From: a bacterium
GTDB taxonomy: Bacteria > CG03
Length of the DNA: 64,000 nucleotides
Assembly: GCA_043825615.1 (NCBI GenBank)
Contig: JBDRRS010000013.1
Location: forward strand, 68,325 to 132,324
Direction: 5' to 3'
Below the pieces are notes generated by a model. The model made no database searches and had not been told where the DNA came from. It saw only the letters and a program-made list of their open reading frames with translations. The position numbers and the translations under genes are program-made. Positions 1 to 56,303 of this stretch are shown piece by piece (the stretch's first letter is position 1; each line of letters opens with the position of its first letter).

Positions 1-280
1 CCATTAATTCTTCAGGAGTACAAATTTCAATATTTTTATATTTTAACTTTTGATTTACCTGACGCAATTTTATTCTTACGTGTGCGTTCGTATTACATCC
101 TTTGCCAACTTAGCAGTTAAATAGCTTACCATTGTAGTTTCAATGTATACCTTTTCTTTCATAATTGTAAATATTATACTATTTCCCTAACTTAATTCAA
201 AGCAACACAAGCAGATGTCTTGGTGACGTTACGAGGGAGAGTGTTAAGTTTGTAAAATGTAAAAGTGTAAAAGGGGGCGC

Positions 281-410
281 CTGCTCTTTCTCCATAAGAT
301 ATATCCGGCACTCCTGAAATTGTGGCACGTGCCACAATTTGCCTTTTTTCCGACAAGGCCGTTTTAAGGTGTCCCCTTTTTCGGCTGTTATTCCGGGCAA
401 GATAGCACTC
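281..410. promoter_or_regulatory. conserved ~130-nt non-coding element, copy A (20-nt palindrome ATTGTGGCACGTGCCACAAT at 319..338)
   Basis: ~85% identical to 38582..38710. The palindrome arms differ at 4+4 positions but stay perfectly symmetric around CACGTG. The overlapping 85-aa ORF (197..454) is judged non-coding. Confidence 0.5.
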
Positions 411-571
411 ACTTCGTTCGTCCTTATTTTTCTCAAATATTCAAGACGTCCCATTTTTCCCAGAATTGTCCCCGCTTTTTACAACTCCTCCTTTATTAAC
501 AGCTAACATAAAAAATCAACTGCCCGAACCCGCAGGGTGAGGAACATCTGGATTGCTTTGTTGAAAAGCCG

Positions 572-1444
572 TTATTCTTCCATGTATTTTTTAAAATATT
601 TTAGATCTACTTCAAAAACAGTTTTTGGTTTTAAACCAAGTTCAACTTTTTCAAACATTTTAATTAGTTTTTCTCCGTCAACTAGCTCAATTTGGGGCGC
701 CCCTTCCCGATTTGCTTCTTTTATTGCCTCATTTGTGAATGAACCAGTTGTTAAAATAATACCTTTTTCTGCTCTGCCTATCATTGCATTACGGAAATCC
801 CCAACTTGTGACCTAGAAACAGAGCCTTTATATTTCTTGCATTGAAATAAAACTTTAAAACTAACAAAAGGATTAATCTCTAAAGTTCCATAACCATCAA
901 TACCGCCATCGTGAGATGAGCCTGTTACAACAACATTGTCAAAGCCATGTTCCCTCAGCAGTTCTTTACATATTCTTTCAAAATCAGAAGAAGATAGATT
1001 TTGTAGTACATAAAGTAAATTGGTTGGTATTTCCTTTTGAAATTCATCTGGCGACTTTTCTTCTTGCTCTTCTATAACTTCATCTATCTTTTTTTCTTTT
1101 CTTGCCTTTTGATGAATTCCTATCCATTTTAGAAATATTTCTCCTGCTTCCCTTACATCTATTTTTCTCTTTTTTCCTAATTCTGTTAATTTCCATGTAC
1201 CATGTTTTGAAGAATCTAATAAACCTTCCCAAACGAGATATTGTCTTGCCCATGCAACCTGATTATGGAATTTGTTTGCTCCTGATTTTAATGTATCATT
1301 TAAAATATCATCAGACAATTTTAAATTTTCTGCAATTTTTGTAGAAACTTCTCTTGGTTTTCCAGAATCACCTAAATCCCTTAATGCATCTAATAGCGGA
1401 CCAAACCATTTTACAAATTCTGCATTACTTTGCTTTTTTGTCAT
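572..1444 (-). CDS. mrr: Mrr-family type IV restriction endonuclease (Mrr_N winged helix + Mrr catalytic domain)
   Basis: 290-aa ORF. C-terminal block 'VVVTGSSHDGGIDGYG...QCKKY...ILTTGSFT' fits the Mrr catalytic core; the N-terminal region looks like Mrr_N. The gene is markedly AT-rich relative to its neighbours. Confidence 0.75.
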   Translation of the reverse strand: MTKKQSNAEFVKWFGPLLDALRDLGDSGKPREVSTKIAENLKLSDDILNDTLKSGANKFHNQVAWARQYLVWEGLLDSSKHGTWKLTELGKKRKIDVREAGEIFLKWIGIHQKARKEKKIDEVIEEQEEKSPDEFQKEIPTNLLYVLQNLSSSDFERICKELLREHGFDNVVVTGSSHDGGIDGYGTLEINPFVSFKVLFQCKKYKGSVSRSQVGDFRNAMIGRAEKGIILTTGSFTNEAIKEANREGAPQIELVDGEKLIKMFEKVELGLKPKTVFEVDLKYFKKYMEE

Positions 1445-1540
1445 TTGTTTTTCCTTTTATTTATTAATTCCAACGTCCTCACCTAACGCGCAAGTGCAAG
1501 GCAAGCGAAGCGCGGCCTTTCACTTGTCGCGTTCAGGTGA

Positions 1541-2440
1541 TTATTCTGCCTTCTCGATTCTCTCGATCAACTCGAACATTGCATCGATAGGGGTCACAAC
1601 CGAGTACCCGGAGTTGGATATTTCACTGTTGGTGTAATGATGGGTTTTGTTCTCCCATTGCTCAACGAAGGGGACGAATTGACTCACGATCCCAATGATC
1701 GTGTACTTCGTTGTGAGTCCTTCCTGTTCGACTTGACACACTGGACCTCCGCTGTTTCCGTAATAGGCCGGGCAATCAACGACGATAGTCTGCGTGGCCT
1801 CGTTCTTGCCGGCAACGATGCCGCGACGGAGGAGAGGCATGTCGTAGTCGATTTGAGGAATCTGCTTCAGCCCTATTGATCTGGGGTAGCCGAAGAGGTA
1901 AACCTCATTCGATATCCCAACGTCATCGTATCGAAGGGTATTTGGTTCCATGACGCACATCAGCGGAGACTCGCCCTCGACGTTCTTGAACATACGATTC
2001 TCGAAAACAATCTGTGCGGGCGAGTCCTTTAGAACATCCCCGAATCTGACTACTACCAAGTCGTGTTTGGGATGGAAAAGAATACGTCCGTCCTTTTCAA
2101 GTTCCCCCAGGAAGATACGGCGAACGATCTTCTTCGGGTTGGTTGCCACGTCGACATAGGACACGAGGTCAGCCTCTGACTGTTGGAGTGTCATGCTCTG
2201 TAAGTCATAGAGCACGTGCTTCGCCGTAACGAGGTACGCATTGGATTCGGTCTTGAAGTAGAGTGCGGAGGCAGACGATGTCTCCGAAAACTTGATCAAG
2301 ACAGGAAACGAGAGGTATTCAGGGATCACTGCTATACGCGCGATCGCCAGAGAACTGGCAGCAATCAGGAACAGTGCAACAAGAGATGCAGTTCGTCTCA
2401 TCGTGTTTTTTCTCTCGGGCAGAACAATGTTATTAACCAT
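1541..2440 (-). CDS. secreted trypsin-like (S1) serine protease
   Basis: 299-aa ORF with an N-terminal signal-like segment 'RRTASLVALFLIAASSLA'. Catalytic-triad context: 'TAKHVL' (His), and 'GNSGGPV' (Ser). GC content is higher than the flanks. The true start may be the second Met. Confidence 0.65.
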   Translation of the reverse strand: MVNNIVLPERKNTMRRTASLVALFLIAASSLAIARIAVIPEYLSFPVLIKFSETSSASALYFKTESNAYLVTAKHVLYDLQSMTLQQSEADLVSYVDVATNPKKIVRRIFLGELEKDGRILFHPKHDLVVVRFGDVLKDSPAQIVFENRMFKNVEGESPLMCVMEPNTLRYDDVGISNEVYLFGYPRSIGLKQIPQIDYDMPLLRRGIVAGKNEATQTIVVDCPAYYGNSGGPVCQVEQEGLTTKYTIIGIVSQFVPFVEQWENKTHHYTNSEISNSGYSVVTPIDAMFELIERIEKAE

Positions 2441-2656
2441 ATGTTATATTTTTATCATATTTTTGCACAGAAAACAATATATATCCGCTGAAACCTACAA
2501 GGAGAATTATGGTCGTTTGAACCACTCATTCTTCACTTATTTTGAATTTTGAACACGGGAAGATTATATTACAAATATTTTTTTCGAAAGGGGCGAGATA
2601 AGCAGGCATGGTTAAGTTTTATATTTTGGTTTTTTTTACTACAATTAAAAAATTCC

Positions 2657-6841: not shown

Positions 6842-6974
6842 CACACCAACTGCGCAGCAGGCGGCGTTGCCTGACAAGCCCGCTCATCCGCTGTGGCGAA
6901 CGAGTGCGGCGGCGGATGGTGCCCCGCCAGGGCGGACGGGACACTGCCGGAGCCGGACAGGGCGAGGAAATTAC

Positions 6975-7089
6975 AGCGAGCGGTTTTTGGCAAGCGGGGC
7001 TGTGTGAGCGAGGGATTTGCAGAATACCCGTAGCGAACCCAGAGCGAGCTGTTCTCACGTGAGCGTCCCCGCTGTCAAAACCGCGAGCA
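6975..7089. repeat. GC-rich ~115-nt intergenic repeat with imperfect terminal inverted repeats (copy 1 of 2; REP/MITE-like)
   Basis: 'agcgagcggtttttggcaagcgggg ... ccccgctgtcaaaaccgcgagca' is near-identical to 52005..52114. Lies between the 3' ends of convergent genes. Confidence 0.6.
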
Positions 7090-18899: not shown

Positions 18900-21800
18900 T
18901 CAGCGTATTATCGCTAATTTTCCTTTTTTCTTTTCACCTGAATCCTTAGATATTATGTAAAAATACACTCCGCTGGCTACATCCCTTCGACTGTTGTTGC
19001 GGAGGTCCCATACGGCGTCGGTATTCGAATTGTCCTTATTTATCGTCCGCACTAACTCCCCAGTTATCGTATAAATTTTTATTTTTAACGTGTTCGGTAA
19101 GTTTGTAAACGTCACTCCGGTATATCCCATTCCACTCCTCCACGGGTTCGGATAGACGTAAACGTCGTCCGGCGATAAATACGAAAGCTCAATCAAGCTG
19201 TATACCGAGAGGCTCGAAAGTTGGGCTTCTATCCATTTTGCGGAAGTGTTGATATAAAAATCTTCCTGGATAACCCATTCACCTTTATCCTCGTCCAGTT
19301 TTACAATCCTCAGTTTGTTTTCCTGCGCGCGGGTGAGGTCGGCAGGATAATAGAACCTTATGGTAATCGCTCCTGACGGCACATCGGCAAAATCAGTTAT
19401 TTTATTATCAAGCTCGTCCATAATAACATAATTTCTGGACGGCGCCATGACGGGTATTGTCCCGGCCGGGAGTTTGTTTTCCGCCGCTGTTTCCTTATCC
19501 TTCTGTTCCTGCGTCAGTTCCTGAATTTCCATGCGGGTCGGAAAATTAAATGCATCTGCCGAAACTTTAACTACTGAAATTGTATTGCCTGTCGTCCCGT
19601 CTTTAAATTCTTCTTCGTAATCTTCGCCGAGATAGAGTTGATGAAATGTCACGGTTGCAACGGTGCGGTCAAAGTCCGAAGCAATTCCGCCTCCATTGAA
19701 CGCCTGGACTTTATAATAATATGTCGTCGTGGTTTTTATATCTGCGGTATCTGTGTAAGATGTATCCGTATACCCGGAATTAAAATTAGTGATTACATTT
19801 GTTGAAGTTGCAAAATCGTCGGTTGACCTTAAAATTCCCCACCGTGTATATGAAGGATTACCGTTCGGCTCCCAGGTAATTTCTACGGACCACGAACTTC
19901 GAGACAGGATATACGAATTTGCCGGTGGATTTGCAAGCGTCCATCCTGTTGCCGTATTTGACGGATCAGAAAGAATTCCCGACGCTCCCGTTTTTACATA
20001 TCTGTAATATGATGTGTTTGCGGAGAGGTCTGTTTCAATCCAGGTAGTTGTCCCATTCCCTTCCAGCTTTTCAAGAAATTTATTATCGGGAAAACTGTAG
20101 ACCTGGTAAAATGTCGCACCCTGCATTAAATCCCACTCCCATTTGATTGAGCCGGTTGATAGCGCATCACCATAAAGACCCGCCGGCGTATTATACCACT
20201 GCCCGCAATCTCCGCCGTCGGCAATTGTCCAGTTGAATGTATCCTTGATATACTGTCTTTTTTCCGCTGGAAGGCCTAAACTATATTTTGAATTTCCACC
20301 ATTAAAACTTATTCCGCTCTGCAACGGTAATTCCGACCATTTGATTAGAAGCTGATTATAATTTGCAGAAGACAGTTGGACACCATAAAGAAAATCACAA
20401 AAATTTACGACAGATGATACATCCCAACTGCTTATATCCTGATTAAATGAAGTTGCGCCATAGAACACACTATCCATATATCTAACAGATGAAACATCCC
20501 ATCCGCCTATATTCTGATTAAATGAAGTTGCGCCATAGAACATAAAAAACATAGCGGTAACAGAGGACACATCCCAGCTGCTTATATCCTGATTAAATGA
20601 AGTTGCACCAGAGAACACACTATTCATACAACTAACAGATGACACATCCCAATTACCTATATCCTGATTGAATGATGCTGCCCCATAGAACATCTGATAC
20701 ATATTTGTAACAGAGGACACATTCCAGTTGCCTATATCCTGATTGAATGAAGCGGCACCGGAGAACATCTCAGACATATCTGTAACAGACGATACATCCC
20801 AATTCCCTATCGGTCGATTAAATGAAGATGCTTTATAAAACATCCTATCCATATTTGTAACAGACGACACATCCCAATTACCTATATCCTGATTAAATGA
20901 TGTTGCACCCTGAAACATTAGATACATATTTGTAACAGACGATACATCCCAATTCCCTATCGGTTGATTAAATGAATTTGCACCAGAGAACATCCAAGAC
21001 ATATCTGTAACGGATGAAACATCCCAGCCGCCTATATCCTGATTAAATGAAGTTGCAATCTGAAACATTACCTGCATATTTGTAACAGACGATACATCCC
21101 AATTGCCTATAGGTTGATTGAATGAAGGTGCTTTAGAGAACATCCCATACATATCTGTAACAGAGGACACATCCCAGTTGCCTATCGGTTGATTAAACGA
21201 AGTTGCATCATAAAACATATAAGACATATCTCTAACAGACGATACATCCCAGTTGCCTATAGGTTGATTAAATGAAGTTGCGTTAGAGAACATCCAAGAC
21301 ATATCTGTAACAGAGGACACATCCCAGTTGCCTATATCCTGATTAAATGAAGATTCGTTATAGTTATAAAACATACAAGACATATCTGTAACAGATGATA
21401 CATCCCAATTGCCTATAGGTTGATTAAATGAAGTTGCGCGAGAGAACATCCAAGACATATCTGTAACAGATGATACATCCCAATTACTTATATCCTGATT
21501 AAATGAAGTACCAAACATACTAAACATATCCGTAACGGATGACACATCCCAATTACCTATCGGCTGATTAAATGCTGATGAGAACATATTAGACATATCT
21601 ATAACAGACGATACATCCCATCTGCTTATATCCTGATTAAATGAAGCGGCGCCAGGGAACATCAAAGACATATCTGTAACACTGCTGGAAACGGCATCAA
21701 AGAAATCTGCCGCAGTGAATGTTGAGATAGTTGTCGCTCCACAAAACATCTCATGAGCGCTTGTAATCCCTGAAACACCATCTGAAACAGGTGTTAATAT

Positions 21801-22187: not shown

Positions 22188-22591
22188 ACTTCCTTAATAT
22201 TATTACCGTACAAATTAAAAAAAACAGGGCTACCAAAAATTCAGAGAAGAATATCCCCTTATCTTCGGTAGCCCGGCTAGCGGGTCAGTCAGTTTAATTT
22301 TTGTGCAACTTTACCTTCGGTGTCCTGGCTGGCTTACCCTGCACATATATTGCAGGGGGTAGCCCCGTGGCTTTGCGTCCCCGCCTTTCAGCGGGTTTGC
22401 CTTTATCGGATAAAGCCCAATGTATTCTTTACAATATAAGTATAGTGTGAAAAGCCTTAAATGTCAATTTATCACACATAATTCAAAGTAGGAATGTAAA
22501 TATTTCTGTTGGAACCTGTAAGAAGAATTGTGACTTTGACAAACTTTCTACCTTACAAGTAGACAGGTTTTTTTATTTTTCGGTTTTGTCC

Positions 22592-37701: not shown

Positions 37702-37886
37702 TTTTTTTGATTCTCAGCGGGACAGAATAGCCCTCATTTTGTTCGTCTTTATTTTTCCCTGTAATGGGCCATAAAAACCGCCGCGAAAATTGGTATAAAG
37801 ATTCTCAGGCAGCAAATTATATCTACACAAAATCACCTGCCTGGCGAAGCGGCGACACCGCGTGGAAGGTCAGTCGGATTGGCTTG

Positions 37887-38336
37887 TTAAACTTTATTAT
37901 TTTTTAAATAATCAGCGTCCAATTTATCTTTTTTTCTACCAGTGGATTGTTTATTTTTTATGAGGTTTTCTTTTGAAATAAATGGTATAGATAGGTTTTC
38001 AATTTCTATATTTTCTCTGGATTTGTACGCGTCTTGGAAATTTACTCCGTCAATATGTGTGATAATATCAATGCGCCGGGGTGCTACGCCAATTTGAAAA
38101 ATAATGCCTTTTTTGGTAAATGTATCTTTGGTTATCTCGGAAAGAGGAGCGCCAAATTCAGAAAGAGAGAGATATATTTTTTGGGAATTATTAGCAGATG
38201 CCTCTACCCATATATCAAAATCACCAGTTGCACGCGGATAACCGTATGCACCCATGGCATAAGCACCAACGGTGAGAAATTTCACTTCATTGTTCAATAA
38301 GATTTGTAACATTTCTTTGTAATCTTCGTTCAACAT
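37887..38336 (-). CDS. nucleotidyltransferase-fold protein (minimal NTase; TA/defence-like)
   Basis: 149 aa. 'VGAYAMGAYGYPRATGDFDIWV' is the G[SA]..G..-D.D pol-beta NTase motif. Overlaps the upstream small ORF by 50 nt. Confidence 0.5.
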   Translation of the reverse strand: MLNEDYKEMLQILLNNEVKFLTVGAYAMGAYGYPRATGDFDIWVEASANNSQKIYLSLSEFGAPLSEITKDTFTKKGIIFQIGVAPRRIDIITHIDGVNFQDAYKSRENIEIENLSIPFISKENLIKNKQSTGRKKDKLDADYLKNNKV

Positions 38337-38475
38337 AATTCACTCCTCTGAGCGACCAAATTTCCGCTGTAAGTTCCCACATAAAGGAGACAAGCTCCTT
38401 TGGGGACGCTTCTACAAAGGAATCGTCTTTTTTGGTAAGTTTCTTAAGATTTGCGATTTTTCTTCTTACTTTCAT
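38287..38475 (-). CDS. small ORF co-transcribed with the NTase (putative partner protein)
   Basis: 62 aa. Starts at 'ATGAAAG' 6 nt after a TATAAT, so likely leaderless. No family recognised. Confidence 0.35.
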   Translation of the reverse strand: MKVRRKIANLKKLTKKDDSFVEASPKELVSFMWELTAEIWSLRGVNYVERRLQRNVTNLIEQ

Positions 38476-38581
38476 ATTGATATTATACCATATTTTATCA
38501 ATTTTTCATTTATGTCTAACATTTTTATCATAATTTTCACACAGAAAGCCATAGTTTCAGAATTTTCAGGAATAAATCCAT

Positions 38582-38710
38582 CTGCTTCTTCTCCATAAGA
38601 CATATCTGGCCCTCCTGAAATTATTCCACGTGGAATAATTTGCCTTTTTTCCGACGACGCCGTTTTAAGGGGTACCCTTTTTGGCTGTTATTCCATGTAA
38701 GATTGCCCTC
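38582..38710. promoter_or_regulatory. conserved ~130-nt non-coding element, copy B (20-nt palindrome ATTATTCCACGTGGAATAAT at 38630..38649)
   Basis: ~85% identical to 281..410; the palindrome arms covary around a fixed CACGTG core. Lies upstream of the NTase cassette on the minus strand. Confidence 0.5.
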
Positions 38711-38835
38711 GAAAAAAGTACCTGTCCCCTCTTTATATTTTTATAAGACCATTCCGCAGTATAGTGCGGAATGGTCCGCACTATTCCGCATAGACGCGCG
38801 CAATTGTGCCAAAGACAACCGCACCCGGCCCCTTT

Positions 38836-39102
38836 TTACGAATAGTGCATAGCGTACTTGCTCAACAATTCGCGTATCATTTTTTGATACTTGGTATGAT
38901 ATTGCCTTGCCACACGCTTGAAAAAATTTACATCTGTTTCCTTCAGGTGGATGGTAACCTTCACGGTTTCTTCCGGCGCAACCAATTCATTAGGCGGGGG
39001 CAGAAAATCTTTAATCCTGGTTAGTTTTCCAAAAGCCCTATCCTTATCAACCGCTTTCTTTTTCATAGTACTCCGCCTCCTTTCTCCAATATCCGGCGCC
39101 AA
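38836..39102 (-). CDS. brnA: BrnA antitoxin (RHH/CopG-like)
   Basis: 88 aa. The C-terminal 'KVTIHLKETDVNFFKRVARQYHTKYQKMIRELLSKY' resembles BrnA. Overlaps brnT. Confidence 0.65.
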   Translation of the reverse strand: MAPDIGERRRSTMKKKAVDKDRAFGKLTRIKDFLPPPNELVAPEETVKVTIHLKETDVNFFKRVARQYHTKYQKMIRELLSKYAMHYS

Positions 39103-39358
39103 ATATCCTGATTTTACCGCGCCGGCAAGTAAATCTAACTGTTAAAATTTTACCTTGGACTTTACCAATGCAGAAAAACCTTTTCTCTTTTTTGCTGTGC
39201 TTTTCATCTATGTAAATCTTCCTTTCTGTATCCTTAAATACCCTGGTGGCCATAGAAAAATCAACGCCGTGCTTGCGAACATTGCTTATCTCTTTTTCAT
39301 TATTCCATATAAAACTGCCAAATTTTTTATCCATACTTTTGTCAGTATAATTATACAT
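39047..39358 (-). CDS. brnT: BrnT toxin (DUF497 ribonuclease)
   Basis: 103 aa. 'FIWNNEKEISNVRKHGVDFSMATRVFKD' is the BrnT N-terminal signature. Confidence 0.7.
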   Translation of the reverse strand: MYNYTDKSMDKKFGSFIWNNEKEISNVRKHGVDFSMATRVFKDTERKIYIDEKHSKKEKRFFCIGKVQGKILTVRFTCRRGKIRIFGAGYWRKEAEYYEKESG

Positions 39359-39586
39359 AAATAATTTGAAATATCAAGGGTTTCTCCCTCCAAGGTATAA
39401 AGCTTTTTGGCAGTTAAAATATTGTTACAGGTTTCAACAAAAAGAGTAAAATACCTTTCCCAAAAAATATGTCACGAAAGCATTCTGTCCGCCGTAGCTT
39501 CAGCGAAGGAGGGTCATCCCCTGGCACCATCACTGCCAATAAATATAAAAACAGGCTAAAATATATAATGCAGACAGAACTTACCT

Positions 39587-40453
39587 GTGAATTGTATACA
39601 GGAGGTATTAAAAATGAATGTAAAAGAAACGGTAGAGAAATTTCTGAACTATGAAAGGGAGCAATCGGTAGCACACACAGTAGCAAATTACAAAAGTATT
39701 CTTTTTCCTTTCTTGAATTTTTTTGAGGAAAAAGACGTTGAGAACCTTACTCCTGAAGATGTCTTCTCTTTTCTAAGCCAACGCACGGATAAGTGCAATA
39801 AGACAACTAAGCATGTAAGATTTACTCAACTTAAAGCGTTCTTCAACTTTTGTAAAGGTGGTCTTGGGTTGAGTATTGTGAATCCCTGTAGCAGTTCACT
39901 TTTTGCTATGGCGTATAGATCACCCAAACTAACTCTGTGCGAGACTATTGCAAAAGAAGTGATTGATGAGCTTATCTTCAGAACTGTGAAATTGAGGAAC
40001 AGACTTCTTTTAGAAATCCAGGCAAGAAGTGGATTGCGGGTTGGTGAAGTTTTAAAACTTAGACCAAGAGACATTGAGGGGAGGAAAATCACTCTGATTT
40101 CACCAAAAAGTGGGCGTGAATTTGAGACTGCATTCTTGCCCAAAGGTGTTAGTGAAAGATTGAATACATATGTTGAGGAAGAAAAGATACAACCAGATGT
40201 GAGAATCTTTCCTTTTACTTATTCCTGCGCAAGGAGTATTGTGCGAAAGGCCGGGGAACTTGTTGGGATTCACCTAAGACCACACGATTTAAGAAGACAC
40301 TCCGCAACTTATGCGAGTAGGAATGGAGTCCCTCTCGAAGTTGTCTCAAAAGTAATCCTCCGTCATCAAGATTTAAGAACCAGTCAGCTTTATCTTGGTA
40401 AAGTCAGTGATGATGAAGCACTCCATTGGATTGATACTTTACATAGTGTCTAA
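39587..40453 (+). CDS. tyrosine site-specific recombinase / integrase (XerD-like)
   Basis: N-terminal SAM-like domain, then the catalytic residues R ('LRVGEV'), H-x-x-R ('HDLRRH') and Y ('SQLYLG'). An alternative start is at 39614. Confidence 0.8.
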   Translation: MNCIQEVLKMNVKETVEKFLNYEREQSVAHTVANYKSILFPFLNFFEEKDVENLTPEDVFSFLSQRTDKCNKTTKHVRFTQLKAFFNFCKGGLGLSIVNPCSSSLFAMAYRSPKLTLCETIAKEVIDELIFRTVKLRNRLLLEIQARSGLRVGEVLKLRPRDIEGRKITLISPKSGREFETAFLPKGVSERLNTYVEEEKIQPDVRIFPFTYSCARSIVRKAGELVGIHLRPHDLRRHSATYASRNGVPLEVVSKVILRHQDLRTSQLYLGKVSDDEALHWIDTLHSV

Positions 40454-40566: not shown

Positions 40567-40941
40567 TTACATTTGTGTTAGTTTATCAAGAACAGTTATA
40601 AGTTCGCTGAGTTCAAAAGGTTTGTGCAGATAATCAACAGCGCCTAATTTCATAGCAGTTTCTCTTTTATCTTCATCAATAAGTCCTGTCATCATTATTG
40701 CTACGATGTCCGGCTTGATTTCTTTGAGAGCTTTCAATGTGTCAAGGCCATCCATTTCAGGCATCAAAATATCAGTAAAAACAACATCAAAATTTTCTTC
40801 CTTTAGTTTTTTGATTGCTTCTTTACCACTTTTGACAATACTAACCTGATATTTTCCCTTATACATTCGTTCAAATATTGTCTTGAATAACGACCTTATT
40901 GTTTCTTCGTCGTCAACTACTAATATTTTTTTAATTTCCAT
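40567..40941 (-). CDS. stand-alone response-regulator receiver domain (CheY-like)
   Basis: 124 aa. 'ILVVDDEE' with the phospho-acceptor Asp in 'DVVFTDILMPEMDG'; conserved K in 'KPF'. Confidence 0.8.
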   Translation of the reverse strand: MEIKKILVVDDEETIRSLFKTIFERMYKGKYQVSIVKSGKEAIKKLKEENFDVVFTDILMPEMDGLDTLKALKEIKPDIVAIMMTGLIDEDKRETAMKLGAVDYLHKPFELSELITVLDKLTQM

Positions 40942-43030
40942 TGTCTTTTGCAGGTAATATTATAGTGAAAGTTGTGCCTTTTCCTTCTTCACTCTGGACA
41001 TCAATTGTACCCTTATGTTTTTCTATAATTCCATAACTCACTGACAAACCTAATCCGGTGCCTTTGCCTACAGGCTTTGTGGTTACAAAAGGATCAAATA
41101 TCTTGGCAATCATCTCTTTGGGGATACCACTGCCGGTATCTTTAAATTGAACCTCAACCACTTTGTCTCCTTTACAAAATGGATCAGTTCTTCGCTTTAA
41201 TTCTTCTTTTACTGTATAAGAAGTGGTACTGATAAATAATCTACCTCCATCTGACATAGCATCACAAGCATTGTTTAAGATATTGATAAACACTTGCTGT
41301 AACTGTGGAGCATTTGCCATTGTGGAAGGGATATCCGGAGCAAGATTTTTTATGATTTTAATATTTGCAAGTTCCACCTGGTGACTAATCAGAATTAAGG
41401 TGTCTTCAACTACCTTATTTATATTCGCAGGGTGAAAAGCAAACGCTTCCTGCCGCGAAAATTTTAGAAGATTTGCCACAATTGCCTTACATCTTCTTGC
41501 TGCCTGAAGAATTGACTCTATGTTTTCTCGGTTGGGATCATCTTCAGGCAGGATAGTTGACAATAATGAGGATACCCCAAGAATTCCTCCCAGAGGATTA
41601 TTCAGTTCATGAGCAACGCCGCCGGCCATTATTCCGAGTGAGGACATCTTCTCTGCCTGTACCAATTGCGCCTGAGTGGTTTTTAAGTCATCATATGCAT
41701 TTCTTAACTCTGTGGTTCGCTCCTCAACTCTTTTCTCAAGTTCGGCTCTCGCCTCTTCTAAGGCCATGGTTCTAGCCTCACCTGCTGCTGCTGCTGCTGC
41801 TGCTGCTGCAAATTCCTTTTCCTTTTGCTGTAATTTCAGTATTTCCCGCATATCTTTGGCTACACCAACAATACCTACTAAATTGCCCTCTTTATCTTTC
41901 ATCACCGACCCGGAAAAACTCACCGGGATATTTTCTCCATTTTTTGTCCTGTATGCCATATCATAATCACGCACCGAACCTTCCTTTAATAACTTTTCCC
42001 ACCTCGTGCCTTTGAACAGCGTATCTTCTTCTTCTTCTTCTTCTTCTTCTTCTTCTGCAAAAAGTATTCCCACAGGCTGACCGATTAGTTCTTTTTCCTC
42101 ATATCCTAAAAGTTCACCCGTTACTCTGTTAATTGTTCTTATGGTCGCATCAGGGTTTACAACAATTAAGGTATCAATCATTGATTTGATTATATTATCC
42201 GTATAATCTCTGGCTCCGATTAATTCATTTTTGGACTTACTTAAATCTTCAATCATTTGTCTGAAACTTGCTGCCAGGTCACCAATCTCATCATTTGACT
42301 TAATATCTGTTTTGATATCTAATTTGCCCTTTCCTACTTCTATTGCTGCAATCTGTAATCTCAAGATTGGGTACACTATTGCCCGGGAGACTACAAATAA
42401 TACAATTGCACTTACCAAGATAGAGAATACGAATAAAATCCAGAGAAAAGTTATGGTTACATCATAGTTTCTATCGCTGTCCTTTTTTGCTTTGGTCAGT
42501 TCGCTATCATTTCTGACGACTATCTTAGTCATTTCAGCATATAATTTCTCAAAGGAAACCCTTCCCTGTCCTTTAGAAAGTTCACTTGCCTTGATATAAC
42601 TGCCCTCACGGCTAAGTCTTTGCACTTCTATATCGATTTTCTTCCAGTAATCATAAAGTTCTCTAAAGTTAGCGATACCCTCTTTCCCTTCAGGAGTAAT
42701 GATCTTTTCTAACTTACTAAGTTTCTTATTCATCTCGGATTCGTATTCTTTGATGTTCGCCGTGAATTGATCCATTTCTTCGACTTTATGTTCCAATATT
42801 AATTGTTTCTCTGCGCGGTGTATCTTTATGATATCCTGCTGAATCTGGGCACTCAATAACTGCCTGGGGGAGACAATATCCACAATATTATTCAACTTCG
42901 TATTTATCATACCCATGCGCTGAATCCCTACTGAAGTATCTATAAGCAGAATCAGAATTACTATACTAAAGGCAAGTCCTAACTTTGATTTTATACTGAA
43001 CCTATTTTTTCTTAAGCTTTGAGATTTCAT
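40931..43030 (-). CDS. sensor histidine kinase (TM-sensor, HAMP, PAS, HisKA, HATPase_c) with poly-Glu and poly-Ala tracts
   Basis: 699 aa. H-box 'GGVAHELNNPL'; N/G1/G2 boxes 'NILNNACDAM', 'DTGSGI', 'GKGTGLGL'. Contains E10 and A9 tracts. Confidence 0.85.
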   Translation of the reverse strand: MKSQSLRKNRFSIKSKLGLAFSIVILILLIDTSVGIQRMGMINTKLNNIVDIVSPRQLLSAQIQQDIIKIHRAEKQLILEHKVEEMDQFTANIKEYESEMNKKLSKLEKIITPEGKEGIANFRELYDYWKKIDIEVQRLSREGSYIKASELSKGQGRVSFEKLYAEMTKIVVRNDSELTKAKKDSDRNYDVTITFLWILFVFSILVSAIVLFVVSRAIVYPILRLQIAAIEVGKGKLDIKTDIKSNDEIGDLAASFRQMIEDLSKSKNELIGARDYTDNIIKSMIDTLIVVNPDATIRTINRVTGELLGYEEKELIGQPVGILFAEEEEEEEEEEDTLFKGTRWEKLLKEGSVRDYDMAYRTKNGENIPVSFSGSVMKDKEGNLVGIVGVAKDMREILKLQQKEKEFAAAAAAAAAGEARTMALEEARAELEKRVEERTTELRNAYDDLKTTQAQLVQAEKMSSLGIMAGGVAHELNNPLGGILGVSSLLSTILPEDDPNRENIESILQAARRCKAIVANLLKFSRQEAFAFHPANINKVVEDTLILISHQVELANIKIIKNLAPDIPSTMANAPQLQQVFINILNNACDAMSDGGRLFISTTSYTVKEELKRRTDPFCKGDKVVEVQFKDTGSGIPKEMIAKIFDPFVTTKPVGKGTGLGLSVSYGIIEKHKGTIDVQSEEGKGTTFTIILPAKDNGN
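41783..41809. repeat. (TGC)9 in-frame trinucleotide repeat (poly-Ala in the kinase)
   Basis: Perfect triplet repeat inside the kinase CDS. Confidence 0.9.
42024..42053. repeat. (CTT)10 in-frame trinucleotide repeat (poly-Glu in the kinase)
   Basis: Perfect triplet repeat inside the kinase CDS. Confidence 0.9.
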
Positions 43031-51988: not shown

Positions 51989-52004
51989 AATAAGCGCTTA
52001 TAAA

Positions 52005-52114
52005 AGCGAGCGGTTTTTGGCAAGCGGGGGCTGTGTGAGCGAGGGATTTGCAGAATGCCCGTAGCGAACCCAGAGCGAACTTTAAAAGCGTCCCCGCTGG
52101 CAAAACCGCGAGCA
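52005..52114. repeat. GC-rich intergenic repeat, copy 2 (see 6975..7089)
   Basis: Near-identical to copy 1, minus a 15-nt internal segment. Lies between proC and the yggT-like gene. Confidence 0.6.
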
Positions 52115-56139: not shown

Positions 56140-56303
56140 TGGCTGGCGGAGCCGCTCGCGGTTTTGCCGGCGGCGGAGCTGCCTTCCGGAGACACTCACG
56201 TCTGCGGCTCGCTCCGCAATCCTGCGGGCATACTGTCAAACTCCTCGGATTGACGGCTCCGTCAGACACCATCCGCCGCCTTATTTTTGACGGTAGAATA
56301 TAA

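What the first reader, a model, noticed from the sequence alone, without database searches (positions are those of the whole stretch)
37887..38710. Shared cassette architecture downstream of both element copies
At both loci the element is followed on the minus strand by a near-identical 'GTATAATAT-(4-6 nt)-ATGAAAG' block about 100-130 nt downstream. At copy B this block starts a 62-aa ORF overlapping a minimal nucleotidyltransferase. At copy A (ATG at 162..160) it starts a PIN-like 'MKEKVYIETTMVSYL' reading frame that stops after 29 codons, a decayed remnant. The pattern looks like modular cassettes with a common upstream element and a leaderless first gene, loosely like integron attC-cassette units. 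This integrase is a generic XerD-like tyrosine recombinase, not a recognisable IntI. The NTase with its overlapping small partner is a candidate toxin-antitoxin or defence pair of unassigned family.
Basis: partly seen in the sequence, partly recalled or inferred. Interest (0 to 1): 0.55.

Follow-up and report, generated by a model that had tools for sequence, protein, structure and literature searches.

The report
Toxin-antitoxin modules beside parS-like repeats
Two unrelated small toxin-antitoxin-type gene modules, each with its own promoter that starts the message at or near the start codon, lie downstream of two copies of a repeat whose core is most likely a binding site for ParB-type DNA clamps; the evidence does not support an integron-like cassette system.

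Summary
The sequence blocks exist, but the spacing is 4 and 8 nt, not 4-6. Each block is the promoter and start codon of its own module, not part of the repeat.

- **NTase pair.** The 62-aa and 149-aa genes overlap by 50 nt. The pair recurs in four other contexts with the same TGGTATAAT-(6-9 nt)-ATG block and no repeat upstream.
- **PIN module.** It is a VapC-like gene with an internal deletion plus a 64-aa partner. It recurs with its own TTGAAT-16-TATAAT promoter in a close relative that lacks the repeat.
- **Copy A.** In that relative, a 2.3-kb segment is also missing. It holds a trypsin-like gene, an Mrr-like gene and repeat copy A.
- **Integrase.** It is XerA-like, not IntI, and is not found next to the module in the part of a variant strain's contig that was recovered.
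- **NTase fold.** The model resembles TM1012 and the MenT1 toxin, whose antitoxin is a 68-aa protein. A MenAT1-like toxin-antitoxin pair is therefore the best reading.
- **Repeat.** Its core is a parS-like palindrome. Elsewhere it sits directly upstream of orphan ParB genes, and ParB residue R or Q tracks base G or A of the site in 8 of 8 cases.

The integron analogy is not supported. A weak hint of cassette-like mosaicism remains.

The parts
37887..38336 (-). Minimal nucleotidyltransferase of 149 aa with a MenT1/TM1012-like fold; the putative toxin
   Evidence: ORF. No Pfam hit for this protein. More than 5000 close homologues and 7237 clusters at 50% identity. Invariant G24-A25, D39-x-D41, D90, K129, R134, K136-D137 and D140. 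AlphaFold2 model with mean pLDDT 88.9. Best Foldseek matches are 2ewr (TM1012) and 8an4/8an5 (MenT1, MenAT1). Relatives give weak hits to DUF2204, DUF6036 and AbiEii.
38287..38475 (-). Small partner protein of 62 aa, leaderless, overlapping the NTase gene by 50 nt; the putative antitoxin
   Evidence: ORF. The same ORF with the same overlap occurs in L076, L077, L078, L079 and L081. The protein is conserved at 55-82% identity, with an invariant WELT..W.LR core and RRLQRNVTNLI tail.
38469..38509 (-). The NTase module's own promoter and leaderless start: ATGAAA-16-TATAAT preceded by TG, then 6 nt, then ATG.
   Evidence: AAAATATGGTATAAT-(6-9 nt)-ATG is conserved in L076-L081, where the upstream sequence is otherwise unrelated.
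38510..38553 (-). Weak copy of 'block J' (TTTCTGTGTGAAAATTATGATAAAAAT)
   Evidence: Local alignment to window 2425-2480. Not recovered by BLAST at E<=0.05, so this copy is only suggestive.
38582..38710 (-). Repeat element copy B. Its parS-like palindrome is AAATTATTCCACGTGGAATAATTT at 38618-38641.
   Evidence: 14 of 16 positions match TGTTNCACGTGNAACA; the two mismatches are symmetric. No Rfam match.
37703..37757 (-). Partial third copy of the element (the 5' part of the long form), abutting the prs stop codon
   Evidence: 31 nt at 87% identity to copy A, E=0.037. Gapped alignments to copy A and to L003.
38836..39334 (-). BrnT and BrnA toxin-antitoxin pair upstream of element B. Its own promoter, TTGATA-16-TATAAT, is at 39377..39350.
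   Evidence: BrnT matches PF04365 at 1e-19; BrnA matches PF14384 only weakly. Promoter. In variant strain L004, BrnT is deleted and BrnA is 91% identical.
39587..40453 (+). XerA/XerD-like tyrosine recombinase, divergent from BrnTA
   Evidence: PF00589 and PF02899. NCBIfam XerA 105 bits (cutoff 220); integron integrase 37 bits (cutoff 265). Homology with L004 ends at window 39443, before the gene.
281..457 (-). Repeat element copy A (long form, 177 nt). Its parS-like palindrome is AAATTGTGGCACGTGCCACAATTT at 317-340.
   Evidence: 174 nt at 88% identity to L003.
156..200 (-). The PIN module's own promoter (TTGAAT-16-TATAAT) and start codon.
   Evidence: The same block occurs in L086 and L083, which have no element.
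76..162 (-). Remnant of a VapC-family PIN gene (first 28 codons). The C-terminal remnant and the 64-aa partner continue past the window's left end.
   Evidence: Full-length homologue with its downstream partner.
205..2479 (-). Segment of 2.3 kb absent from the close relative L086. It runs block J, trypsin-like gene (2440..1541), Mrr-like type IV restriction enzyme (1444..572), element A, then a 76-nt spacer.
   Evidence: L086 1-210 matches window 2685-2480, and L086 226-430 matches window 204-1. Mrr identified. Block J matches L003 over 58 nt at 86%, E=9e-9.

Best explanation
The region holds two independent things side by side.

**1. A compact, horizontally mobile two-gene module (38509..37887, minus strand).**
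- Its own extended -10 promoter (TGGTATAAT) lies 6 nt before the ATG, so the mRNA is leaderless or nearly so.
- The first product is a 62-aa helical protein.
- The second is a 149-aa minimal nucleotidyltransferase with its own Shine-Dalgarno sequence. Its gene begins 50 nt inside the first gene, in the +1 frame.
- Most likely mechanism, inferred by analogy with MenAT1: the NTase adds nucleotides to tRNA 3' ends and arrests translation. The small protein binds the NTase and blocks it.

**2. A separate 130-177-nt repeat, 93 nt upstream.** Its core is a parS-like palindrome, that is, a binding site for an accessory ParB paralogue.

**Why the two loci resemble each other.** Both downstream modules carry a near-consensus -10 box directly before an ATG-AAA start. 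These modules are the NTase pair and a decayed VapC-like PIN gene with its partner. The blocks belong to the modules, not to the repeat. Both loci are AT-rich islands of toxin-antitoxin and defence genes, and in this lineage the repeat is scattered through such islands.

**Shown:** the module boundaries, the conservation of the promoter blocks, that element and modules occur apart, the fold similarity, and the covariation between ParB and its site.

**Inferred:** toxicity, antitoxin action, the transcription start site, and ParB binding in this genome.
For: **The blocks belong to the modules**
- NTase loci L076-L081 share the sequence from about 40 nt before the small ORF's ATG through to the NTase stop, and nothing beyond. 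The block reads AAAATATGGTATAAT-(6-9 nt)-ATG.
- A profile of the element finds nothing in those loci.
- The PIN module with GCTTTGAATTAAGTTGGGGAAATGGTATAATATTTAT..ATG occurs in L086 and L083, which have no element.
- L086 lacks window 205-2479, the segment holding the trypsin-like gene, Mrr and element A.
- Consensus promoter scans call both promoters.

**Toxin-antitoxin reading**
- The small ORF is conserved as a protein in four independent contexts.
- The NTase motifs are invariant.
- The structural model is confident, with pLDDT 88.9.
- Foldseek: TM1012 at E=3.5e-4; MenT1 and MenAT1 at E=3.7e-4 to 1.7e-3, TM-score 0.58-0.69.
- MenA1 is a 68-aa antitoxin, and most menA1 homologues lie upstream of a menT-like gene (PMC10435456).
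- Relatives touch DUF2204, DUF6036 and AbiEii.
- The PIN gene is VapC-like.

**Element is a ParB site**
- The palindrome matches parS at 14 of 16 positions.
- A scan built on the palindrome pattern returned canonical parS sites.
- The element lies 12-15 nt before true ParB genes carrying ParB_N and HTH_ParB domains.
- The residue equivalent to position 173 is R where half-site position 1 is G, and Q where it is A. This holds in 8 of 8 pairs, four of them predicted before the DNA was read.
- This is the published ParB/Noc specificity rule (PMC7383237).
- R and Q are scattered across the protein similarity matrix. L007b (Q) is 95% identical to L011 (R).
Against: - The layout 'element, then 95-135 nt, then an extended -10 directly before an ATG' recurs at four non-ParB copies: window A, window B, L003 and L088b. 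This is more than two coincidences, so functional or insertional coupling is not excluded.
- A partial element copy lies just after the NTase gene.
- The 2.3-kb indel at copy A is bounded by block J and the element. In L003, J and the element are adjacent. This looks like a circular permutation.
- Relatives with the small domain apparently fused to the NTase (hhalign probability 45%) fit a regulatory domain as well as a labile antitoxin.
- No toxicity data exist for this family.
- No ParB gene is present in the window.
Confidence: 0.7

Rival explanations
1. This is a site-specific cassette system, integron-like in logic. Each cassette would be [block J promoter, gene(s), element, spacer]. Cassettes would be gained and lost as units by a tyrosine recombinase such as the XerA-like enzyme at 39587-40453, and neighbouring cassettes would meet at element-spacer|J junctions.
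For: - Window 205-2479 is present here and absent in the close relative L086. Short GT-rich repeats (..TCTGTGC / ..TGTGTTGC) lie at its two junctions.
- Block J is conserved over 58 nt at 86% before two unrelated genes. In L003 it lies about 60 nt after an element.
- The NTase module is bracketed by element B and the partial copy C.
- A divergent tyrosine recombinase lies next to the BrnTA-element-NTase run.
- Both islands are AT-rich, at 35-38% G+C against 48% for the neighbouring genes.
Against: - The recombinase lacks any IntI signature. It is not found next to the module in the recovered part of variant strain L004.
- No recombinase was found in the other element loci.
- The element is a conserved asymmetric sequence with one short palindrome, not an attC-type imperfect hairpin.
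- The indel breakpoints lie about 135 nt from the palindrome.
- Only one gain or loss event was seen, and a deletion through microhomology explains it equally well.
- Block J at copy B is weak.
- The NTase and PIN modules occur elsewhere with neither J nor the element.
Confidence: 0.12
2. The element is functionally coupled to the downstream modules. A ParB-paralogue CTP clamp would load at the parS-like site and slide or spread about 100-135 bp to silence or activate the strong leaderless promoters of toxin-antitoxin and defence modules. This is how KorB, VirB and BisD act on mobile-element promoters.
For: - A parS-like site lies 95-135 nt upstream of an extended -10 promoter at four non-ParB copies carrying different genes.
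- The ParB paralogues keep the GHRRL box of the CTP-binding N-terminal domain.
- ParB-like regulators that act from sites upstream of promoters are known (PMC10770331 and PMC12409273, listed).
- The element sits in toxin-antitoxin and defence islands next to AbiE, zeta-like, Fic, Mrr and BrnTA genes.
Against: - The same modules carry the same promoters in genomes without the element.
- The window holds no ParB gene.
- The distance and the intervening sequence are not conserved.
- One orphan copy has lost palindrome symmetry, which suggests decay.
- No expression data exist.
Confidence: 0.15
3. The element is a structured RNA, either a 5' leader or a small RNA. The palindrome would be an RNA hairpin, and the downstream genes would be controlled at the RNA level.
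For: - The stem shows perfect compensatory changes in 4 of 10 pairs.
- A Shine-Dalgarno-like sequence follows the hairpin directly in most copies.
- In ParB loci a TGCTAAAAT box lies upstream, so the element would be transcribed as the parB leader (read from the sequences).
- Two one-sided changes are wobble-compatible on the sense strand: L002 in a small hairpin and L088b in the palindrome.
Against: - No Rfam family matches, even at E<=10.
- Folding energies are not unusual, with z-scores of -1.2 to -1.4.
- There is no covariation outside the palindrome.
- The arms vary in step with the DNA-reading residues of the adjacent ParB. This points to a double-stranded protein site.
- No wobble pair is seen in the palindromes of the other 16 copies.
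Confidence: 0.08

Closest known systems
MenAT1 (Rv0078B-Rv0078A) and the wider MenT/AbiEii nucleotidyltransferase toxin-antitoxin systems
   Same: A minimal NTase-fold protein is preceded by a very small, helical partner gene: 62 aa here and 68 aa for MenA1. The model matches MenT1 and the MenAT1 complex at TM-score 0.58-0.69 (PMC10435456). The hG[GS], DxD, third-acidic and K..R..KD..D motifs are invariant.
   Different: - No significant sequence match to DUF1814/AbiEii for this protein.
- It is shorter, at 149 aa against about 190.
- It has a leaderless first gene and a conserved 50-nt dual-coding overlap.
- Some relatives appear to have the small domain fused to the NTase.
- Neither toxicity nor the substrate is known.
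TM1012 and the DUF2204/DUF6036 nucleotidyltransferases
   Same: TM1012 (2ewr) is the best structural match, at E=3.5e-4 and TM-score 0.68. One 80%-identical homologue passes the DUF2204 threshold.
   Different: These are families of unknown function, so the match names a fold and not a mechanism. The window protein itself scores below every Pfam threshold.
Integrons (IntI, attI, attC cassettes)
   Same: A tyrosine recombinase lies divergent from a run of small, same-strand accessory modules that include toxin-antitoxin pairs, with a repeated non-coding element between them.
   Different: - The recombinase is not IntI, and its position is not conserved in the recovered part of the variant-strain contig.
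- The repeat is conserved in sequence, whereas attC sites are conserved mainly in structure (established knowledge, from memory).
- It has no R''/L''-L'/R' organisation.
- The modules have their own promoters and occur without the repeat.
ParB-parS and Noc-NBS
   Same: The site is a 16-bp CACGTG-centred palindrome that matches parS at 14 of 16 positions. It lies next to true ParB genes. The pairing of R with G and Q with A at position 1 follows the published specificity rule (PMC7383237).
   Different: - No ParA domain was reported among the called genes of L088-L092.
- There are several paralogues per contig, with tandem units in L007.
- The site is embedded in a conserved stretch of about 85 nt, directly before the parB ribosome-binding site.
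- Orphan copies are scattered in toxin-antitoxin and defence islands.
KorB-OB, VirB-virS and BisD: ParB-like CTP-clamp regulators of mobile-element genes
   Same: A ParB-type site sits roughly 100-135 bp upstream of promoters of accessory genes (papers listed).
   Different: No evidence of regulation here. The proteins are close to chromosomal Spo0J-type ParB rather than to KorB or VirB.
VapC-family PIN toxin with a downstream small partner
   Same: The N-terminus MKEKVYIETTMVSYLTA and the C-terminus ICTPEEL match an annotated VapC-family toxin. In that record the gene is followed by an MND..V..R partner ORF, as here.
   Different: In the window about 118 internal codons are deleted, and only the partner is intact. 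The same deleted form is found in relatives.

Membership tests
Integron | An IntI-type integrase that matches the integron-integrase model, including the extra IntI domain | tested here: not met
   TIGR02249 scores 37 bits against a cutoff of 265 and covers only residues 28-199. The best model is archaeal XerA at 105 bits, below its cutoff of 220.
Integron | attC sites: imperfect inverted repeats spanning the whole site, with RYYYAAC and GTTRRRY cores | tested here: not met
   The element has 45 nearly invariant asymmetric bases and one 24-nt perfect palindrome. No terminal core sites were seen on reading.
Integron | Integrase and attI platform stably linked to the cassette array | tested here: not met
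   In variant strain L004, homology ends at window 39443, and a different large gene replaces the integrase side. No recombinase was found in the other element loci.
Integron | Cassettes are mostly promoterless and depend on the recombination site for mobility | tested here: not met
   The NTase, PIN and BrnTA modules all carry near-consensus promoters. The NTase and PIN modules occur without the element.
MenT/AbiEii-type NTase toxin-antitoxin | NTase fold with the catalytic motifs hG[GS], [DE]x[DE], a third acidic residue and a C-terminal K/R/D motif | tested here: met
   Invariant G24-A25, D39-F-D41, D90, K129, R134, K136-D137 and D140. Model pLDDT 88.9. Foldseek matches to MenT1 at probability 1.00.
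MenT/AbiEii-type NTase toxin-antitoxin | Sequence membership of Pfam AbiEii/DUF1814 (PF08843) | tested here: not met
   The window protein has no Pfam hit at E<=0.1. Most relatives score 12-19 bits against a cutoff of 22.5; only the fused relative P0225 reaches 23.1 bits.
MenT/AbiEii-type NTase toxin-antitoxin | A conserved adjacent partner gene (the antitoxin) | tested here: met
   A 62-aa ORF overlaps the NTase gene by 50 nt in every locus examined.
MenT/AbiEii-type NTase toxin-antitoxin | Growth inhibition by the NTase and its neutralisation by the partner; tRNA 3'-end nucleotidylation | not testable with these tools
   Needs expression and in vitro assays.
ParABS centromere (parS) | A 16-bp palindrome of consensus TGTTNCACGTGNAACA | tested here: inconclusive
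   14 of 16 positions match in both window copies, with symmetric mismatches. The variants seen across copies are GTGG, GTGT, GTGC, ATTC, ATTT, ATGC and ATGT.
ParABS centromere (parS) | A cognate ParB with ParB_N and HTH_ParB domains that reads the site | tested here: met
   This was tested in related loci, not in the window. Domains. R/Q tracks G/A in 8 of 8 pairs, and the residue after the FGHA motif (R, K or M) tracks the fourth arm base (G, C or T) in 8 of 8. The rule comes from PMC7383237. The window itself has no ParB.
ParABS centromere (parS) | A ParA ATPase partner | tested here: not met
   No ParA-type domain was reported among the called genes of L088-L092. For L002-L011 only ten ORFs next to elements were scanned against Pfam, and none was ParA-like.
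VapBC-type PIN toxin-antitoxin | An intact PIN domain | tested here: not met
   Only 28 N-terminal and 13 C-terminal codons remain. The full-length homologue has 159 aa.

The most novel reading that the evidence does not exclude
The 85-nt element and its orphan ParB paralogues form a previously undescribed accessory ParB system embedded in toxin-antitoxin and defence islands of an Elusimicrobia-like lineage. Several paralogues per genome would each read a private parS variant. Their specificity would have been switched repeatedly by the same R/Q-to-G/A rule that separates ParB from Noc. Copies of the site without a gene, such as the two in this window, would serve as loading sites. From these, ParB-CTP clamps would control the strong leaderless promoters of neighbouring modules, or would mark the ends of small gene cassettes that are gained and lost as units.
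Probability: 0.15. Interest if true: 0.75.

Novelty: new member of a known kind. Interest (0 to 1): 0.4.

Why it matters
**The finding as given.** The case is a caution. Two near-identical promoter and start blocks next to a repeat looked like a cassette signature, but each block is the built-in leaderless promoter of an independently mobile module.

**The NTase pair.**
- It belongs to a very large family, 7237 clusters at 50% identity.
- Members are about 80-90% identical across several phyla.
- No experimental data exist for it, and its closest characterised relative is the tRNA-modifying toxin MenT1.
- The leaderless small partner, the conserved 50-nt dual-coding overlap and the apparent fused relatives make it a tractable new toxin-antitoxin model.

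**The repeat.**
- It gives a natural series of ParB-site pairs.
- Specificity in these pairs has switched several times along the path worked out in the laboratory for ParB and Noc.
- If the gene-less sites regulate or delimit defence modules, that would be a new role for ParB clamps.

Tried and rejected
- **Known RNA family.** No Rfam match at gathering scores or at E<=10.
- **Riboswitch-like leader.** Fold z-scores are -1.2 to -1.4. RNAalifold finds covariation only in the palindrome.
- **Element as a coding remnant.** The 1-nt indel between copies breaks every frame.
- **Long-form 3' extension as a decayed parB 5' end.** Alignment scores are no better than shuffled controls, p=0.34-0.96.
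- **The 43-aa ORF over block B.** The sequence upstream of the block is unrelated in the other NTase loci, so the ORF is not conserved.
- **More element copies or a ParB gene in the window.** None found.
- **Element in public collections.** The first pattern gave 0 hits in genome contigs. The second pattern returned canonical parS sites there, not the element. The viral hits were non-palindromic and unrelated. There was no match in the plasmid or phage records.
- **att-type direct repeats around the prs island.** Nothing convincing.
- **Sequence match of the NTase to solved structures.** None.
- **BLASTP of the 62-aa protein against fused relatives.** Not significant. The profile comparison is only suggestive.
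- **Second overlapping gene pair in L079.** It is not an NTase module; its larger product looks methyltransferase-like on reading the translation.
- **A genome-wide habit of leaderless starts.** Not evident.
- **Contig for ParB P0282.** Not on record.
Full report
**1. What was claimed and what is there**

- The repeat is real: 281-410 and 38582-38710 are 85% identical.
- The blocks are real: 38488..38469 with a 4-nt spacer and 179..156 with an 8-nt spacer.
- TATAAT-N(4-12)-ATGAAA occurs only at these two places in 64 kb. About 0.14 matches are expected by chance.
- Block B opens a 62-aa ORF that overlaps a 149-aa ORF by 50 nt.
- Block A opens a frame that stops after 28 codons.
- Between element and block, the two loci do not align.

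**2. The blocks belong to the downstream modules**

*NTase module*
- The NTase has more than 5000 close homologues, 77-92% identical, in Omnitrophota, Elusimicrobia, Nitrospirota and other groups.
- I fetched the DNA around three of them, which gave five loci in three further genomic contexts. With the window that makes four contexts.
- In all of them the 62-aa ORF is present with the same 50-nt overlap.
- Nucleotide homology begins about 40 nt before its ATG and ends at the NTase stop codon.
- The shared upstream part is exactly the block: AAAATATGGTATAAT, then 6-9 nt without a Shine-Dalgarno sequence, then ATG.
- None of these loci contains the element.

*PIN module*
- The small gene just beyond the window's left end has two close homologues.
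- Their contigs show the same truncated PIN gene and partner behind GCTTTGAATTAAGTTGGGGAAATGGTATAATATTTAT..ATG, again without the element.
- One of them, L086, is a close relative, 94-96% identical in the flanks. Its module sits at the same tRNA-Val site.
- Relative to L086, the window has an extra 2275 nt (205-2479). This segment holds a trypsin-like gene, an Mrr-type restriction enzyme, element A and a 76-nt spacer (Mrr).
- The element at copy A therefore goes with the genes upstream of it, not with the PIN module.

*Conclusion.* The consensus scans call both promoters: ATGAAA-16-TATAAT with an upstream TG at 38509..38482, and TTGAAT-16-TATAAT at 200..173. The resemblance between the blocks is a resemblance between two strong promoters placed directly before Met-Lys starts.

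**3. What the modules are**

*NTase*
- The window protein has no Pfam, NCBIfam or PADLOC hit.
- The family has 7237 clusters at 50% identity. Relatives score near threshold on DUF2204, DUF6036 and AbiEii.
- The classical NTase motifs are invariant.
- An AlphaFold2 model has mean pLDDT 88.9. It matches TM1012 and then the MenT1 toxin and the MenAT1 complex, at TM-score 0.58-0.69.
- MenT1 adds CMP to tRNA 3' ends. It is blocked by MenA1, a 68-aa helical protein, and most menA1 homologues lie upstream of a menT-like gene (PMC10435456).

*Small partner*
- The 62-aa protein is conserved as a protein in all four contexts.
- The 50 overlapping nucleotides are almost invariant, as expected when both frames are read.
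- The NTase gene keeps its own ribosome-binding site.
- Some relatives are 185-225 aa long, with the NTase domain at the C-terminus. Their N-terminal extension aligns with the central helix of the small protein, but only weakly: hhalign probability 45%, E=2e-4, with BLASTP not significant.
- In those proteins the join falls at E-S/R-R-L followed by K/R-E. That is where a +1 shift in the window's overlap would join the two frames. This is my reading.

*Best reading.* A MenAT1-like toxin-antitoxin pair fits best. The fused relatives leave room for a regulatory-domain reading.

*PIN gene.* It is VapC-like. A plasmid homologue of 159 aa has the same N- and C-termini and the same downstream partner. 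The window copy has lost about 118 internal codons.

**4. The integron analogy**
- The recombinase scores best on the archaeal XerA model, below its cutoff. It scores 37 bits on the integron-integrase model, whose cutoff is 265.
- A variant strain (L004) is 98.4% identical over BrnA, element B and the NTase module. It has BrnT deleted, and a different gene stands where the integrase side would be.
- The element is not an attC-type hairpin.
- The defining features that I could test are not met.

**5. What the element is**

*Copies and the palindrome*
- An exact-pattern scan of metagenome contigs gave ten more copies.
- In five of them the element ends 12-15 nt before a 261-aa gene with ParB_N and HTH_ParB domains.
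- Across the first eleven copies a stretch of about 45 nt is almost invariant. Only the inner arms of the palindrome vary, and they always vary symmetrically.
- A scan of genomes with the palindrome pattern returned canonical chromosomal parS sites. That revealed what the palindrome resembles: TGTTNCACGTGNAACA, with two symmetric mismatches.

*The R/Q test*
- In ParB and Noc, residue 173 reads half-site position 1. R goes with G (parS) and Q goes with A (NBS) (PMC7383237).
- The four intact paralogues already in hand obeyed this rule.
- I then read the R or Q state of further paralogues from their protein sequences. After that I fetched four new loci, which carry three further R/Q pairs and one repeat of a known site type.
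- All obeyed the rule, making 8 of 8.
- The R and Q states are scattered across the similarity matrix. L007b (Q, site ATTT) is 95% identical to L011 (R, site GTGT). Linkage within two clades therefore does not explain the pattern.
- The residue after the FGHA motif (R, K or M) tracks the fourth arm base (G, C or T), also in 8 of 8 pairs.

*Conclusion.* The palindrome is most likely the cognate DNA site of these orphan ParB paralogues. The window's copies, GTGG and ATTC, are sites without a ParB gene in the window.

*Neighbours.* The elements lie next to AbiEi/AbiEii, a zeta-like gene, a DUF1016 nuclease, Fic, an NTase-like gene, BrnTA and Mrr. These are toxin-antitoxin and defence islands.

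*Still unexplained.* The role of the invariant 45 nt is unknown. In the ParB loci a TGCTAAAAT box lies just upstream. The element would then be the parB leader, with the site downstream of the promoter.

**6.
- At four non-ParB copies with different genes, an extended -10 directly before an ATG lies 95-135 nt after the palindrome.
- A 31-55-nt piece of the long-form element lies immediately after the NTase stop.
- A 58-nt block, 'J', holds a promoter and the first codons M-V/F-N-N-I-V. It is 86% identical before two unrelated genes.
- In L003, J follows an element by about 60 nt. At the tRNA-Val locus, J and the element lie at opposite ends of the 2.3-kb indel.
- That is what integration of a circle carrying an element-spacer-J junction would produce. 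It is a single event, however, and a deletion through the short GT-rich repeats explains it as well.
- I keep this as a rival at low probability.

**7. Verdict**
- The cassette or integron interpretation is not supported in the form given.
- The toxin-antitoxin reading of the NTase pair is supported by conserved gene pairing and by fold.
- The more interesting object is the neighbouring ParB-site element.

Noticed in passing
L007:3008-5115, L008:9184-10075, L011:1-785, L088:2777-3650, L090:3912-4786, L091:3912-4786, L092:3920-4786: Orphan ParB paralogues of 261 aa, 78-95% identical to one another, each lie directly behind an element copy. L007 holds two such units in tandem. Substitutions cluster in the HTH region. 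The R or Q residue tracks G or A at site position 1 in 8 of 8 pairs, and the residue after the FGHA motif tracks the fourth arm base.
   Followed up: yes
window 2425-2480 and L003:2490-2556: 'Block J' holds a TATGATAAAAAT promoter-like box and the first codons M-V/F-N-N-I-V. It is 86% identical over 58 nt in front of two unrelated genes. A weak copy lies at window 38510-38553.
   Followed up: partly
window 38705-38734; L092:2585-2604 and 1543-1560; L090:1287-1302; similar boxes in L088 and L091: The motif (A)GGGGACAGGTACTTTTTT recurs exactly, over 16-20 nt, in intergenic DNA of several loci, often 20-60 nt upstream of an element. Its function is unknown. It may be a lineage-specific terminator or a small repeat.
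   Followed up: no
window 317-340 (+ strand) and 38618-38641: Read on the strand opposite to the genes, the palindrome followed by GCCTTTTTTC scores as an intrinsic-terminator-like site. The run of A's beside the palindrome is conserved in all copies (six, or five in several ParB-linked copies).
   Followed up: no
L001:1-26 and L085:1: An independent short-read assembly of the same organism breaks inside the element's palindrome (L001). A second contig (L085) starts inside the PIN remnant. This fits a multi-copy repeat in the genome.
   Followed up: no
window 38747-38776: A nearly perfect 30-nt palindrome (GACCATTCCGCAGTA/TAGTGCGGAATGGTC) lies between the BrnA stop and element B. A second, overlapping inverted repeat is at 38756-38789.
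   Followed up: no
window 22263-22410 (-) and 20328-21681: A c-di-GMP-I-GGC riboswitch (67 bits) lies upstream, on the minus strand, of a stretch with about 17 tandem 75-nt repeats, equal to 25 codons each.
   Followed up: no
window 6970-7089, 52000-52114 and 56154-56180: A second repeat family: two direct copies of about 120 nt, 93-96% identical and 45 kb apart, plus an inverted 27-nt piece.
   Followed up: no
window 40931-43030 (-): The histidine-kinase-like ORF contains a run of 10 glutamates and a run of 9 alanines.
   Followed up: no
L083:708-795: In a third context the PIN gene is reduced to a 13-codon peptide (MIKICTPEELMEG) behind the same promoter, while the partner gene is intact. 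The toxin gene has decayed stepwise while the partner is kept.
   Followed up: partly
L088:990-2640 and L089:2131-3799: An AbiEi-like gene and an AbiEii (PF08843) pair lie immediately upstream of an element-ParB unit. This is another NTase toxin module next to the element.
   Followed up: no
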